A stretch of 64,000 nucleotides of DNA, from assembly GCA_951406725.2 (NCBI GenBank), contig OX597818.1:68696001-68760000 (forward strand), given 5' to 3'. The notes under the pieces are model-generated. The model made no database searches and was not told where the DNA came from. It saw only the letters and a program-made list of their open reading frames with translations. The DNA comes from Octopus vulgaris (Eukaryota). How positions within the stretch are numbered: the first letter of the stretch is position 1; the number at the start of each line of letters is the position of its first letter. Below, piece by piece: positions 6,221 to 46,122 of the stretch. A program made the position numbers and the translations under genes.

Positions 6221-6252
<32 letters not shown>

Positions 6253-6255
<3 letters not shown>

Positions 6256-6603
6256 TCATCATCATCGTCATCATCGTTTAACGTCCGTTTTCCGCGCTAG
6301 CACGGATTGGACAGTTCGACCGGGGTCTGGGAAGCCAGGAGCTGCACCAGGCTCCAGTCTGATCTGGCAGTGTTTCTACAGCTGGATGCCCTTCCTAACG
6401 CCAACCACTCCATGAGTGTAGTGGGTGTTTTTTACGTACCACCTGCACAGGTGTGCCAGGGGAGTCTGGAATCGGCCACGATGGGTTGGTACTTTTAACG
6501 TGCCACCGGCACAGAAGCCAGCCAAGGCGGCGCTGGCATCGGTCACGTTCGGATGGTGCTTTTTATGTGCCACCGGCACCGGTATCACAGCTACTATTTC
6601 CAT

Positions 6604-8536: not shown

Positions 8537-10408
8537 GATTGCCAGACAGTGTGTGAGAGAAAATAGTGATGTTACAGGAGAGAAATGTGTCTGCATGGAC
8601 GATGGGGCACTTGCTTTTAATGTTGGTGAAAAGAAAGAGGCTTGGAGAAGCCATTATGAAAGACTGCTGAATGTGGAGAATGAATGGGAGGAGGAGAGCC
8701 TGCCAAATGTTGACCCAGTAGAGGGACCAGCTATCCGAATAGACAGCTCCCTTGTAGTTAAGGCAATTAAGGGTATGAAACCAGGTAAAGCCCCCGGCCC
8801 ATCAGGTATCACTGCTGAGATGCTTAAAACAGCTGGTTATGTGGGCTATGGCCTAGTCACCCGTATTGTAAACCAGGTAGTTCATAATGGAGTCATACCC
8901 AATGACTGACGTAGCAGCACCATAGTCAACTGCTACAAGGGTAAGGGTCATGCTCTAGATAGAAATAACTACAGGGGTATTAAACTGTTGGATCAGGTGA
9001 TGAAGGTCACAGAGAAGGTCATAACCCATCTCATTAGGGAGAGAATTTGCTTAGATGAGATGCAGTTCGGTTTTGTGCCGGGTAGAAGCACCACTGATGC
9101 TATATTCCTGGTCCGACAACTGCAGGAGAAGTACCTAGCTATAGATAAACCCCTCTACATAACTTTTGTGGACTTGGAGAAAGCTTTTGACAGGGTTCCC
9201 CGATCCCTTATCTGGTGGTCGATGTGGAAACTGGAGATTGACAAATGGCTAATAAGGGCTGTACAGGCTCTATACAGAGAGGCTGTCAGCAAGGTTAGGA
9301 TTGGCAACGAATATAGTGAAGAATTCCAGGTAGAAGTAGGTGTACACCAAGGCTCAGCCCTCAGTCCCCTTTTATTCATCATAGTCCTCCAGGCAATAAC
9401 AGAGGAATTCAAAACAGGATGCCCCTGGGAGCTCCTCTATGCTGATGACCTGGCTCTCATAGCAGAATCACTACCGGAACAAGAAAAGAAATTTTGGGTG
9501 TGGATGCAAGGGTTAGAATCAAAGGGCCTTAGAGTAAATGTAGCAAAGACCAAAGTTATAGTAAGCAGAAAGGCGAACTCAGCACATACCCCCTCGGGCA
9601 GGTGGCCCTGCTCGATCTGTAGGAAAGGTGTAGGTAGAAACTCCATAAGATGCACCCAATGTAAGCTATGGACGCATGAGAGGTGCAGCAACATCAAAGG
9701 GAAATTAACTGATAAGATAGCTTTCATGTGCGGCAGATGCACAGGGACAAAAGACACCACAGACACTCAGAAAACAGATTCCATCACACTCCAAGGGAAG
9801 AAACTAGAAGTAGTTGATAGTTTCCGCTACCTGGGTGACCAAGTTAGTAGTGGAGGTGGATGCTCAGAGAGTATCACCACTAGAATACGAATAGCCTGGG
9901 CAAAGTTCAGAAAGCTCCTACCCCTACTGGTGACAAAGGGTCTCTCGCTCAGAGTGAAAGGTAGATTGTATGATGCATGTGTGCGAACTGCCATGCTTCA
10001 CGGTAGTGAAACATGGGCTGTGACTGCAGAGGACAGCGTAGACTTGAAAGAAATGAAGCTAGCATGATCCACTGGATGTGTAATGTCAGTGTGCACGCAC
10101 GACAGAGTGTAAGCACCCTGAGAGAAATGCTGGACATAAGAAGCATCAGATGTGGTGTGCAAGAGCGACGCTTGCGATGGTATGGTCATGTACTGCGGAT
10201 GGATGAGGAGAGATGTGTGAAGAAGTGCCACTCCCAAACAGTTGAAGGTATCAGAGGGAGAGGTAGACCCAGGAAGACATGGGATGAGGTAGTCAAGCAT
10301 GACCTCAGAGCATTGGGCCTCACTGAGGCAATGGCGAAGGACCGAGATCTCTGGAGATATGCTGTGACTGCAAAGACCCGGGCTTTTGCCTGCACCAGTT
10401 CCGCATAG
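8535..10408 (+). pseudogene. Disabled RTE reverse transcriptase ORF with internal PHD-type zinc finger
   Basis: In-frame TGA at 8907-8909 where W is expected (PND*), frameshift near 10035 (continues in the 10013..10408 frame); no endonuclease domain because of 5' truncation; C4HC3 motif at 9609-9740. Confidence 0.9.
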
Positions 10409-10539
10409 CCCCTGCCCATTCAAAGTACCCTGGATCCCAGAACGTCCCGCTGTGCTTGAGGAGACCTGTTGAGTCAAGTACATGAACATGAACATGAACA
10501 TCGAAATAAATATCAATGGAAATAGTAGTAGTGATACCT

Positions 10540-10897
10540 GTGCCGGTGGCACATAAAAAGCACCATCCGAACGTGGCTGTTGCCAGCGCCGCCTCAACTG
10601 GCTTCTGTGTCGGTAGCACATAAAAAGCACCATCTAAACGTGGCCGATGCCAGCGCCACACCGACTGGCTTCCGTGCCGGTGGCACATAAAAAGCATCGT
10701 CCGAACGTGGCTGATGCCAGCGCGACCTCGACTGGCTCCAGTGCCAGTGGCACATAAAAAGCACCATCCGAACGTGGCCGTTGCCAGCTCCGCCTTGGCT
10801 GGCTTCCGTGCTGGTGGCACGTTCAAAGCTCCAACCGATCATTGCCAATGCCGGACCCCACCCCCGGCACCTATGCAGGTGGCACGTAAAAAGCACC
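10540..10897 (+). repeat. 67-bp tandem repeat array in RTE 3' UTR
   Basis: Units start at 10540, 10607, 10674, 10741, 10808 (period 67) plus a partial unit at about 10873; each has a GTGCC-ggt-GGCAC hairpin, ATAAAAAGCAC and a GCCAG..CTGGC hairpin. Confidence 0.9.
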
Positions 10898-11053
10898 CAC
10901 TACATTCGTGGAGTGGTTGGCGTTAGGAATGGCATCCAGCTGTAGAAACTCTGCAAGATCAGACTGGAGCCTGGTGCAGCCCCTGGCTTCTCAGACCCCG
11001 GTCGAACCATCCAACCCGTGCTAGCGCGGAAAACAGACATTAAACGATGATGA

Positions 11054-11090
<37 letters not shown>

Positions 11091-11092
<2 letters not shown>

Positions 11093-11331
11093 GGAGTAAG
11101 CATATAAATGTGAAACAAGGTGGAAAAAAGAGTACTCAAATACCAGAGGTAGAGTAATGTGCTTTATTTAAAAGCAGCAGAAACATAACAAAAGCTGTTA
11201 CTCAGAGTTTCACATTCTCGGTCATCAGACTGTTTTATTAAAATATTTAGCAAAACTGTCTGATGTACAGGAACATGAAACTCTGAGTAACAGCTTTTGT
11301 TATGTTTCTGCTGCTTTTAAATAAAGCATAT
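11091..11331. mobile_element. Asymmetric fold-back element with paired hammerhead motifs (copy 1)
   Basis: Unique segment 11091-11156, then inverted arms about 11157-11237 / 11252-11331; hammerhead motifs at 11195-11232 (-) and 11256-11293 (+); TA arrays on both flanks; homologous to 12191-12410. Confidence 0.8.
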
Positions 11332-12009
11332 GTGTATATATATATATATATGTAGATATATATATATACACTTTTTATCTCTCTCTCTCTCTTTCTATAA
11401 ATATATATATACACACACATACACACACACATATATATATACATATACATATGAATGTGTATATATATTTAGGTAGATAGATAGATAGATAGACACAACC
11501 TTTACAATATGGTTAAGTCATTCATTTCCAAATCACATGGTCTTGTGTTCAGTCCTGCTGTAAGGTACCCCGGCCAAATATCTTGTACCAGAACTTTGGG
11601 TTGGCCAGAGATACGTGTTTGAATGTGTTGGACAAAACCTGAAAGAATGCTATTGTACGTACATATATGTATATATACGTATATATATCGGTATGTATGT
11701 TTGTGCGTGTTTGTGTATTGTTGTCTTGAGATCATGCGATGGTTAGAGTGCAGCATCACAGTCATAAAAAGGAGATCTTTATTTCTGAACATGTCTGATG
11801 CCTCTTATGAAATATGTCTGGCCAAGGGATAGACTTGGAAACAGATGAAGGCTGACAACAAAAACACTTTCCAGCTGAAAAATATCTGTGTTAATAAATT
11901 CTCTCTGACAAAATACAAGTGCAGGCATTAGACACAAGAATGATGAGATAATATAAAAGAGGAAAGTGTAATACATGTATACATGTATGTATGAATCTAT
12001 GTATGTATG

Positions 12010-12043
<34 letters not shown>

Positions 12044-12057
12044 TGTATTTATGAATG

Positions 12058-12091
<34 letters not shown>

Positions 12092-12137
12092 TGTATGTAT
12101 GTATGTATGTATGCATATCTGTATGCATGTATGTATG

Positions 12138-12193
<56 letters not shown>

Positions 12194-12280
12194 AGAGTAA
12201 ACACATAAATGTGAAACAAGGTGGAAAAAGAGTAGTACTCAAATATGCTTTATTTAAAGCAGCAGAAAATTCAACAAAAC

Positions 12281-12317
12281 CTGTTACTCTGAGTTTCACG
12301 TTTCGTTCGTCGGACAG
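12281..12317 (-). ncRNA. Minimal type I hammerhead ribozyme motif (CCGACGA core variant)
   Basis: Reverse complement reads ctgt-CCGACGA-acg/aaa/cgt-GAAA-CTC-A-GAG-TA-acag: stems I and II pair perfectly, stem III palindromic, GUA cleavage triplet. Confidence 0.7.
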
Positions 12318-12334
12318 TTTTTGCTAGAAAAAAA

Positions 12335-12372
12335 CTGTCCGACGAATGGGAATATGAAACTCAGAGTAACAG
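12335..12372 (+). ncRNA. Minimal type I hammerhead ribozyme motif (CCGACGA core variant)
   Basis: ctgt-CCGACGA-atg/ggaa/tat-GAAA-CTC-A-GAG-TA-acag. Confidence 0.65.
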
Positions 12373-12405
12373 GTTTTGTTGAATTTTCTGCTGCTTTTAA
12401 ATAAA

Positions 12406-12451
<46 letters not shown>

Positions 12452-12454
<3 letters not shown>

Positions 12455-13288
12455 AAAGGCATAGGTAGAAATTCCATAAGATGTACCCAGCGCAAGGTTT
12501 GGACACATAAGAGGTTCAGTAATATCAGAGGAAGGTTAACAGGGAAAAATAGTTTATGAGCGCGGAAGCTGCACAGGTACAATAAACACTAAAATGTCCA
12601 GAAAATAGACTCCATCAAATGTCAGGTGAACAAGCTACAGGTAGTGGGTAGCTTCCATTATCTAGGTGACTAAGTTAGTAGTGGAGGTGGATACTCCCAG
12701 AGCGTAGCTGTGAGAATAAGATTAGGCTGGGCAACATTCAGAGAGTGCTGACCTCTGTTGGCCAAAAAGGGCCTGTCTCTTGGAGTGAAAGCCAGACTCT
12801 ATGATGCATCTATGCAAACAGCTGTGCTACGTGGCATTGAAACATGGGCCTTGACCAATGAGGACATGCGTAGGCTTGAAAGAAAGGAAGCTGGTCTGTT
12901 TTGCTGGATGTGCAATGTCAGTGTGCATGTGTGACAGAGTGTATATGCCTTGAGGAAAAAGTTGGGCATAAGAGGCATCAGATGTAGTGTGCAAGAGAGA
13001 TGACTGTGATGGTATGGTTATGTGATGTACATGAATGCGGACAGCTGTGTAAAGAAGGGACGATCTCCAACTGTGGAGGGGACATCATGTAGAGGTAGAC
13101 ACAGGAAGACATGGGATGAGGTGGTGAAGCATGATCTACAGATGTTGGACCTTTGGTGATATACCGTGCTTGAGAAGAAGACCCATGAAACCAAGTGAAA
13201 TCATAGCCGTGGTCAATGCCAGGGTCATATTACTGGCACTTGTGCTGGGGCCATGTAAGAGCAGATGTTAAATGATGCTGATGATGAT
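12452..13288 (+). mobile_element. Older degenerate RTE LINE copy, 5'-truncated inside the PHD finger
   Basis: Colinear with 9620-10400 (aggaaaggcataggtagaaattccataagatg.., ttccattatctaggtgac.., gaaacatgggcc.., aggaagacatgggatgaggt); many stops; starts at a (TA)n array and ends 'gatgttaaatgatgctgatgatgat'. Confidence 0.9.
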
Positions 13289-36974: not shown

Positions 36975-37020
<46 letters not shown>

Positions 37021-37021
<1 letters not shown>

Positions 37022-37240
37022 GTAACCTCAACATCTCTTCATAGTGTCCTCTGAATGAAAATTGCCTCACAAGTTACATTATCTATAGTGCATCTGTAAC
37101 GGAGAATATTACAACACCAACCCTACCCATCACATATATAGGCTCAACAGCAAACCCATTCAAAGCACAATGCAACCAACACACACACACATACTTCAAG
37201 CACCCTCAACACTTTTCAAACCTATAAATTTATCCACCTA
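37021..37240 (+). pseudogene. Penelope-like element GIY-YIG endonuclease N-terminal fragment
   Basis: Translation CN..*CPLNENCLTSYIIYSASVTENITTPTLPITYIGSTANPFKAQCNQH: IIY..YIG motif preceded by CPL..C; begins exactly at a (TA)n array. Confidence 0.8.
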
Positions 37241-45605: not shown

Positions 45606-46122
45606 TCAACTACAATTTCCATTTGATTTTTTGATGTTGATGTACTTGTCTCAATAGGTCTCCTCAAGCACAGCAGGTCGCCCTACGATCCAAGATAAGT
45701 ACAGCAGGCCATCCTGTGATCCAAGGCACTTTGGATGGGCTGGGACTTCTATGTGAATCTGGTGCAGGAAACAGCTATGAACTCACGTTATTTGTTGGGT
45801 CTTATATATATATAAATACGTATGTATATATATATGTGTGTGTGTGTATATATGTGTGTGTATATTGGGTCTCACAGAGGCAATGATGAAAGACCAGGAT
45901 CTCTGGAGATATGCTGTGACTGCAAAGACCCAACAAATAACGTGAGTTCATAGCTGTTTCCTGCACCAGATTCACATAGAAGTCTCAGCCCATCCAAAGT
46001 GCCTTGGATCACAGGATGGCCTGCTGTATTTACCTTGGATCGTAGGGCGACCTGCTGTGCTTGAGGAGACCTATTGAGACAAGTACATCAGCATCAAAAA
46101 ATCAAATGGAAATTGTAGTTGA
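45606..46122. repeat. 198-bp inverted duplication of an RTE 3' segment
   Basis: Arms 45606-45803 and 45925-46122 are near-perfect reverse complements; 121-bp spacer of TA/TG repeat plus RTE ORF end. Confidence 0.92.

What the first reader, a model, noticed from the sequence alone, without database searches (positions are those of the whole stretch)
11091..12410. Family of about 230-bp hairpin elements carrying a hammerhead on each arm, with a CCGACGA core variant
Seen: two homologous copies (11091-11331, 12191-12410), each a unique segment plus an inverted repeat of about 80 bp. The arms contain ctgt-C(T/C)GA(T/C)GA-stemII-GAAA-CTCnGAG-TA-acag, so a transcript from either strand contains one sense hammerhead and its antisense. 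In copy 2 both arms read CCGACGA (U4 to C) with intact stems. The two arms within a copy share variants that differ between copies (ctctgag vs ctcagag; aaacataac vs aaaattcaac). Inference: the inversion is made at insertion or homogenised afterwards. Stem III (1-nt loop) probably forms only in dimers, and the long hairpin would compete with the ribozyme fold, a possible self-silencing switch.
Basis: partly seen in the sequence, partly recalled or inferred. Interest (0 to 1): 0.75.

Follow-up and report, generated by a model that had tools for sequence, protein, structure and literature searches.

The report
Head-to-head Penelope stubs, altered hammerhead core
These two hairpin repeats are back-to-back stubs of the end of a Penelope-type jumping gene, likely formed as each copy inserted; this layout is already known, and the one unusual point is that thousands of copies carry a changed letter in their predicted self-cutting RNA motif, which hints that cutting may not be needed for the element to spread.

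Summary
Both hairpins are head-to-head, 5'-truncated pieces of the terminal repeat (pLTR) of a Hydra-clade Penelope-like retrotransposon. I found the parent in this genome: a 727-aa RT/GIY-YIG frame between direct pLTRs 3,352 bp apart. In 41 of 45 young head-to-head junctions, one arm has the long 3' end and the other the short end. Either arm can reach further 5' than its partner. This points to two separately primed cDNAs joined at insertion. Only 7 of 74 private variants sit in both arms, so there was no wholesale later homogenisation. CCGACGA (U4C) is not a copy-2 oddity: it is the majority core of the three older subfamilies, while the youngest reads CUGAUGA. A second young Hydra family carries U4C almost throughout (87 of 3,521 hits are U4). 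The hairpin beats the ribozyme fold by about 57-66 kcal/mol, so it looks like a lock, not a switch. Inverted pLTRs with a tail, minimal hammerheads and Hydra elements are published. This scan has noted such stubs before, in this and other genomes. Cleavage is untested.

The parts
11090..11331 (.). Copy 1: head-to-head pLTR stub, older subfamily A
   Evidence: 88% to parent pLTR
11090..11156 (-). Copy 1 one-sided tail (about 67 nt between the short and the long 3' end); in the parent it runs on towards the ORF start
11195..11232 (-). Hammerhead motif of the tail-bearing arm, core CTGATGA at 11228-11222, predicted cut after 11199; stem I mismatch, stem II decayed
11237..11251 (.). Head-to-head junction of copy 1
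11256..11293 (+). Hammerhead motif of the inverted arm, core CTGATGT (A9 lost) at 11260-11266
12191..12410 (.). Copy 2: head-to-head pLTR stub, middle subfamily B
12191..12243 (-). Copy 2 tail, with a 17-nt deletion relative to copy 1
12281..12317 (-). Hammerhead motif of the tail-bearing arm, core CCGACGA (U4C) at 12313-12307, predicted cut after 12285
12322..12330 (.). Head-to-head junction of copy 2, at the CTAG site just 5' of stem I where many arms of the family stop
12335..12372 (+). Hammerhead motif of the inverted arm, core CCGACGA at 12339-12345
11057..11089 (.). (TA)n target flank of copy 1 (TA-rich also after 11331)
12411..12451 (.). (TA)n target flank of copy 2 (also about 12140-12190)

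Best explanation
The two hairpins are head-to-head, 5'-truncated pieces of the terminal repeat of a Hydra-clade Penelope-like retrotransposon whose full-length copies are in this genome, and each hairpin was likely made at insertion from two separately primed cDNAs. Inferred steps: the element's endonuclease cuts both strands of a (TA)n tract. Each cut end primes reverse transcription inside the RNA, one about 37-42 nt and the other 109 nt downstream of the hammerhead cut site. The two cDNAs stop and are joined at their far ends, giving an inverted repeat with a one-sided 67-nt tail. The 230-bp size class arises because many cDNAs stop within about 15 nt upstream of hammerhead stem I. Most likely they were primed in the upstream pLTR and ran off the 5' end of the transcript. 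The template was uncut RNA, since both arms span the cut site (shown). The stubs are by-products with the ribozyme locked in the hairpin (predicted). The U4C core was carried by the source elements of the older subfamilies and by a second family (shown), so strong self-cleavage is probably not needed for spread.
For: Parent: 727-aa frame with YRDD and a C-terminal GVVY..YTG motif, direct pLTRs 3,352 bp apart, each with the hammerhead, plus a 2.1-kb inverted copy ending at the same short end. A second parent locus has a 0.45-kb inversion. 25 of the 30 best protein hits show a 727-aa open frame. ESM Atlas look-alikes at 0.96-0.99 include clusters with GIY-YIG and RVT_1 (lead only). 3' ends of 98 young arms: 51 at +37/+42, 39 at +105 to +112, 4 running on into the ORF, 4 elsewhere. 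Of 45 head-to-head junctions, 41 pair a long with a short end; the short arm reaches at least 3 nt further 5' in 17, the long arm in 13, and they are level in 15. Both arms fall in the same subfamily in 97 of 99 hairpins; private non-CpG variants are in one arm 67 times and in both arms 7 times. 5' ends: 38 of 98 arms stop at -34 to -48 and 5 at -49 to -100. The parent reads CCATTCT, an initiator-like match (consensus recalled), centred on -46. The second family also shows two 3' ends and 5' ends crowded at 0 to -14 (26 of 51 arms). Two internal priming sites that define the tail, and cleavage-independent insertion, are shown in vitro for an anole PLE (PMC11167929).
Against: No transcription start was mapped; the run-off step rests on the pile-up of 5' ends and a short motif, and the second family's pile-up is broader. 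The search pattern needed the whole hammerhead, so shorter arms are missing. One junction accounts for 17 of 33 subfamily-B hairpins (sample enriched by using copy 2 as query), so some could descend from a copied hairpin. CpG changes are shared by both arms more often than chance (16 against 8.0 expected in A; 5 against 1.3 in B), which allows some conversion or varied source elements. Pfam and NCBIfam did not score the parent protein. No tree against published Hydra proteins was built. Stems show no covariation within the family.
Confidence: 0.8

Rival explanations
1. Snap-back (self-priming): one cDNA folds back at a short palindrome and is copied on itself, as proposed for PLE inverted junctions in Adineta.
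For: Junctions often sit on palindromes: CTAG in this family (5 of 45 are perfect fold-backs with a 4-nt overlap) and GGCC in the second family (11 of 51 arms). Proposed in PMC3846280.
Against: In 17 of 45 junctions the short arm holds sequence that the long arm lacks, so it cannot be its copy. In L093 the inverted arm is 2 kb of ORF end, not a mirror of the adjacent 5' end. The fixed short end needs its own explanation.
Confidence: 0.1
2. A non-autonomous hairpin mini-element that is transcribed and mobilised as a unit from master hairpins.
For: A strong size peak (18 of 45 young junctions have both arms ending at -30 to -55) and one very common junction in subfamily B.
Against: Many different junctions (68 strings among 99 hairpins, reverse-complement duplicates not merged). 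The same junction recurs in subfamilies B and Y with both arms carrying each subfamily's own markers. Sizes form a continuum up to multi-kb inversions.
Confidence: 0.06
3. The arms match because gene conversion homogenises them after insertion.
For: Excess of same-direction CpG changes in both arms. In the second family, 4 head-to-head pairs among 87 U4 hits have U4 in both arms. Copy 1 has C-to-T at both core CpG sites in both arms.
Against: 67 of 74 private non-CpG variants and most CpG changes (56 one-arm and 7 opposite against 16 shared in A) are confined to one arm.
Confidence: 0.1
4. The hairpin is a selected self-silencing switch that toggles the ribozyme.
For: The hairpin sequesters the core in the predicted fold of both copies on both strands.
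Against: The gap of 57-66 kcal/mol leaves no alternative state. The arms decay at CpG and other sites like neutral DNA. The stubs encode nothing that could be switched.
Confidence: 0.04

Closest known systems
Hydra clade of C-terminal EN+ Penelope-like elements (Craig et al. 2021, PMC8557442; passages, section 11 and supplement part 2 read)
   Same: RWK, DKT, CxCx5C linker, CxxC and CxH motifs, (TA)n targets, 5'-truncated inverted copy with one-sided tail. The hammerhead has the same stem I, stem III and cut base as Hydra-2_aMil in File S2, and Penelope-13_HM is listed with an inverted copy and a hammerhead on both strands.
   Different: A different family from Hydra-1_Obim (different hammerhead, by eye). 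The unit is 3.35 kb, longer than the usual <3 kb; the tail is about 67 nt rather than 30-40. Every Hydra core in File S2 begins CTGA, whereas the older subfamilies here and a sister family begin CCGA; that table came from a descriptor search and may have missed such cores.
[quoted passage not shown]
   Same: Type I motif, palindromic stem III needing a dimer, low expected activity. Pairs of motifs 100-700 bp apart on opposite strands were already noted there.
   Different: Stem II is only 2-3 bp with a GNRA loop and lacks G10.1-C11.1. The core variant reported in the parts read is U3-A8, not U4C.
Inverted pLTR plus tail insertions of Adineta vaga Penelope (Arkhipova et al. 2013, PMC3846280; passages read)
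   Same: Head-to-head pLTRs, tail on one side, palindromes at the junction.
   Different: That paper favours self-priming on an antisense template; the asymmetric junctions here favour two cDNAs.
PAc Poseidon element of the green anole (Frangieh et al. 2024, PMC11167929; parts 1-2 of 4 read)
   Same: Two internal priming sites that define the tail, both strands cut, AT-rich targets, hammerhead mutants still insert in vitro.
   Different: Different clade. The ORF there starts inside the hammerhead; here it starts about 125 nt after the cut site. Joining of two cDNAs was not shown in the parts read.
Natural U4C hammerhead of a viroid (as cited in Perreault et al. 2011, PMC3088659; passages and section 8 read)
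   Same: Same core change; described as much slower in vitro yet sufficient for infectivity.
   Different: A rare viroid variant there; here it is the majority state in thousands of genomic copies of two retrotransposon families.

Membership tests
EN+ Penelope-like element | Single ORF with RT and C-terminal GIY-YIG endonuclease | tested here: met
   727-aa frame with YRDD (360) and GVVY..YTG (596); Atlas look-alikes with RVT_1 and GIY-YIG. Pfam, PDB and NCBIfam gave no hit for it; the 44%-identical sister protein gave a weak GIY-YIG hit, E 0.047.
EN+ Penelope-like element | Partial-tandem pLTRs flanking the ORF | tested here: met
   246-bp direct repeats at 99% in L093; 517 bp in L094
EN+ Penelope-like element | Inverted 5'-truncated copy and tail at one end only | tested here: met
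   41 of 45 junctions pair a long and a short end; both window copies do
Hydra clade | RWK motif and DKG changed to DKT | tested here: met
   RWK at 53, DKT at 129
Hydra clade | CxCX5C linker; CxxC and CxH motifs in the endonuclease | tested here: met
   CNCKNE.SC in 25 readings and CNFKNESSC in 26 among the held loci (overlapping loci counted twice); CRLC at 683, CRH at 711
Hydra clade | Insertion into (TA)n | tested here: met
   TA runs flank nearly all printed copies
Hydra clade | Groups with Hydra proteins in an RT tree; CCHH motif absent | not tested
   No tree or alignment with published proteins was built; resemblance to Hydra-1_Obim and Hydra-2_Amil judged by eye
Hammerhead ribozyme (minimal type I) | Core CUGANGA..GAAA and NUH cut site | tested here: inconclusive
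   Met in the young subfamily (38 of 40 arms CTGATGA); not met at U4 in A, B and C, where CCGACGA leads (31 of 80, 46 of 66, 7 of 8 arms). Cut triplet GUA throughout.
Hammerhead ribozyme (minimal type I) | Stems I-III supported by covariation | tested here: inconclusive
   95% of cells pair, but covariation does not exceed shuffles in 23 distinct hand-picked arms. Source-level changes fall in the stem III loop base, the base after stem I, the first stem II pair and the N of the GNRA loop. The sister family has a fully different, paired stem I.
Hammerhead ribozyme (minimal type I) | Self-cleavage, as a dimer | not testable with these tools
   The predicted dimer of the young motif shows stems I and II and the intermolecular stem III; monomer folds are no better than shuffles (z -0.06 to -1.7)
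Non-LTR retrozyme | Head-to-tail tandem units, each with a hammerhead | tested here: not met
   The stubs are head-to-head single insertions; definition from 10.64898/2026.07.22.740005, part 1 read

The most novel reading that the evidence does not exclude
Hydra-type Penelope elements in this genome have amplified for a long time with a U4C hammerhead that is slow or dead: three successive subfamilies of one lineage, and a second, still young family with 708-aa open frames. The first lineage then returned to CUGAUGA in its youngest wave. This is a natural series for testing whether the PLE hammerhead works as a nuclease at all, or rather as a protein-bound structure that marks the RNA 5' end and the priming sites. 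The 230-bp hairpins would then be run-off copies that record each element's transcription start.
Probability: 0.3. Interest if true: 0.6.

Novelty: new member of a known kind. Interest (0 to 1): 0.32.

Why it matters
The role of the hammerhead in endonuclease-bearing Penelope elements is described as unclear (PMC8557442), and hammerhead mutants still insert in vitro (PMC11167929). Two families that spread to thousands of copies with a U4C core are genomic support for cleavage being weak or dispensable. They also supply natural U4/C4 pairs for an assay. The strict long-end/short-end pairing with independent 5' stops gives a testable model of how PLE inverted repeats form. In practice, hammerhead searches that require CUGA will miss these families. 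The hairpins could also be double-stranded RNA substrates where transcribed (untested). The window copies themselves are ordinary decayed insertions.

Tried and rejected
Rfam: no hit in the window at gathering scores and no hammerhead family at E up to 10 on the parent pLTR. Pfam, NCBIfam and PDB sequence searches did not identify the parent protein. RNA: no RNA holder listed. Contigs of four runs guessed to be RNA cover the parent in all 30 bins, deepest over the pLTR, but contigs cannot show starts, cut ends, strand or editing. Transcription of the window locus itself, small RNAs and A-to-I edits remain unassessed. A conserved intron ending at stem I, as in D. virilis, was considered because young copies and the sister family have an AG there. 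Most older copies lack the AG and one search lists no matching joint, so I dropped it. The idea that C4 was favoured because it stabilises an off-fold got no clear support: predicted pairing of the core is as high or higher with U4. An origin of U4C by A-to-I editing of antisense RNA is formally possible but was not tested. Literature searches for a consensus U4C core in PLE hammerheads and for short fold-back PLE stubs found the papers cited and no report of U4C in PLEs. Lunse et al. 2017 on PLE hammerhead variants was not held and may contain it. Supplements of PMC4209133 and PMC3088659 were not read. One search failed on an index error and was redone.

Full report
Observation. The window is repeat-rich animal DNA from a 2.8-Gb assembly; earlier AI notes call it octopus-like, which I did not verify. 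The two elements lie at 11090-11331 and 12191-12410 between (TA)n runs. Each is a fold-back with a unique segment on the left, and the copies are 77% alike. A relaxed hammerhead scan of the whole window returned only the four arms. Read in sense, each arm is stem I (CUGU/ACAG), core, a 9-10-nt stem II region, GAAA, palindromic ACUC-N-GAGU and a GUA cut triplet. Rfam does not score it.

Family and parent. DNA searches with each copy gave 3,149 and 2,757 first-look candidates, of which 40 each were scored; all 40 of each set also matched on the opposite strand. A search for tail ends not followed by A gave 600 hits, among them same-strand pairs 3.35 kb apart. Two of these were fetched. L093 holds a 727-aa frame between direct pLTRs that each carry the hammerhead, preceded by a 2.1-kb inverted copy ending at the same short end as the window hairpins. 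L094 is the same with a 0.45-kb inversion and a split frame. The protein has RWK, DKT, YRDD, a CxC/Fx5C linker, GVVY..YTG, CxxC and CxH. These are the features listed for the Hydra clade in section 11 of PMC8557442. Profile libraries missed it; the Atlas gave look-alikes with RVT_1 and GIY-YIG. 25 of the 30 best genome hits to its N-terminal part sit in a 727-aa open frame, so the young subfamily is recent. Hydra-2_aMil in File S2 of that paper has the same stem I, stem III and cut base.

How the hairpin forms. I took the first 100 listed hits of the young pattern, fetched their loci and mapped 98 arms. 3' ends are bimodal: 51 at +37/+42 from the cut site, 39 at +105 to +112, 4 continuing into the ORF and 4 elsewhere. 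Among 45 head-to-head junctions in young loci, 41 pair one long with one short end. The short arm extends at least 3 nt further 5' in 17, the long arm in 13, and 15 are level. 16 junctions overlap by 2 nt or more, 18 are blunt or overlap by 1 nt, and 11 have inserts. A snap-back copy cannot hold sequence that its template lacks, so two cDNAs fit better than the self-priming proposed in PMC3846280. This agrees with the two internal priming sites and two-strand cutting shown for the anole element (PMC11167929); the joining step is my inference. 38 of 98 arms stop at -34 to -48, against 5 in the next 52 nt. Stops at -119 and beyond are mostly divergence from the reference, not true ends. An initiator-like CCATTCT (consensus recalled) is centred on -46, and Penelope transcription starts within the pLTR (PMC2377424, passages). 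I infer that cDNAs primed in the upstream pLTR run off the RNA 5' end, giving about 155 plus 85 nt. Stalling at the base of stem I is not excluded.

Made at insertion or homogenised later. In 99 hairpins (sample enriched for likeness to the window copies), both arms fall in the same subfamily in 97. Private non-CpG variants are in one arm 67 times and in both arms 7 times. CpG changes in subfamily A are 56 one-arm, 7 opposite and 16 shared (8.0 expected; none of 2,000 shuffles reached 16); in B they are 27, 1 and 5 (1.3 expected). So the sharing is mostly inherited from the source RNA, with a minor excess that may be source variation or partial conversion.

The core. Non-CpG divergence and CpG decay order the subfamilies: A 3.6% and 38% (40 hairpins), B 2.1% and 17% (33), C 0.8% and 15% (4), Y 1.3% and 2.5% (20). 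A, B and C have CCGACGA as majority; Y has CTGATGA in 38 of 40 arms. In a pattern with free letters at the two core CpG sites, 60 of the first 100 of 470 subfamily-A hits read CCGACGA and 3 read CTGATGA, with C-to-T and G-to-A decay both present (my count). Exact patterns give 1,582 C4 and 3,606 U4 arms as lower bounds. All 29 ORF-adjacent pLTRs found in 30 top protein loci are U4. Intermediates such as CCGATGA with the young stem II exist (L028). Copy 1's canonical-looking cores are therefore most simply CpG changes of a C4 core, though I cannot tell whether they arose in its source or later. Both steps back to CUGAUGA are CpG transitions, so no selection is needed to explain them.

A second family. 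A PLE end beside L028 led to a sister family with a 708-aa frame, 44% identical, in near-identical tandem units of 2.58 kb. Its hammerhead has a different stem I, a long stem II and the same stem III. With position 4 left free there are 3,521 hits, all 100 listed being C; 87 are U. It also makes short fold-backs with two 3' ends. U4C is known from a viroid as slow in vitro but viable (PMC3088659). My searches found no report of it as a PLE consensus, but Lunse et al. 2017 could not be read.

Folding. The hairpin is predicted at -118 to -125 kcal/mol, and forcing the hammerhead costs 57-66 kcal/mol on either strand. Isolated motifs fold no better than shuffles. The predicted dimer of the young motif shows the double-hammerhead stems; the predicted dimers of the C4 motifs keep the stem III duplex but mostly lose stem II or stem I. 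Within the family the stems are conserved but show no covariation. All inserted arms span the cut site, so uncut RNA was the template.

Verdict. A real but largely known structure: stubs of a new Hydra-clade family. Inverted pLTRs with tails, opposite-strand hammerhead pairs and dimer-type motifs are in print, and earlier notes of this scan describe the same stubs here and in other genomes. The residual interest is the large-scale U4C core and the tidy record of insertion geometry.

Noticed in passing
L273 (G000:C1:57208000-57217500) and L028 1-1330: Second Hydra-type family with 708-aa frames in 2.58-kb tandem units, a YKDD RT motif and a CCGAAGA hammerhead core; at least 3,521 pattern hits.
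   Followed up: partly
L034, both ends of the hairpin: A 15-bp target-site duplication at one of the few copies not inserted in (TA)n.
   Followed up: partly
Stem II loop, e.g. window 12346-12355: Source-level changes of the loop (GGAA, GCAA, GAAA) all keep a GNRA tetraloop. The 10-nt stem II of one subfamily-B variant equals the loop 2 listed for Penelope-2_NV in File S2 of PMC8557442.
   Followed up: no
window 8910-10405 and about 12450-13200: Remnants of a LINE reverse transcriptase on both sides of the two hairpins; RTE-like by recalled motifs.
   Followed up: no
window 10530-11056: A repeat with about six 60-bp tandem units ending in a GAT run; copy 1 sits in the TA tract at its end. Its last 220 bp has an inverted copy at 6231-6453.
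   Followed up: no
window 37018-37212: A short decayed piece resembling the linker and endonuclease of both Hydra proteins (tblastn E about 1e-5).
   Followed up: no
window 45606-46122: A 198-nt inverted repeat, 98% complementary with a 121-nt spacer, unrelated to this family.
   Followed up: no
L200 (G000:C1:64214204-64222456): Two long copies joined head to head, each with its own upstream pLTR, giving an 8-kb mirror insertion.
   Followed up: no
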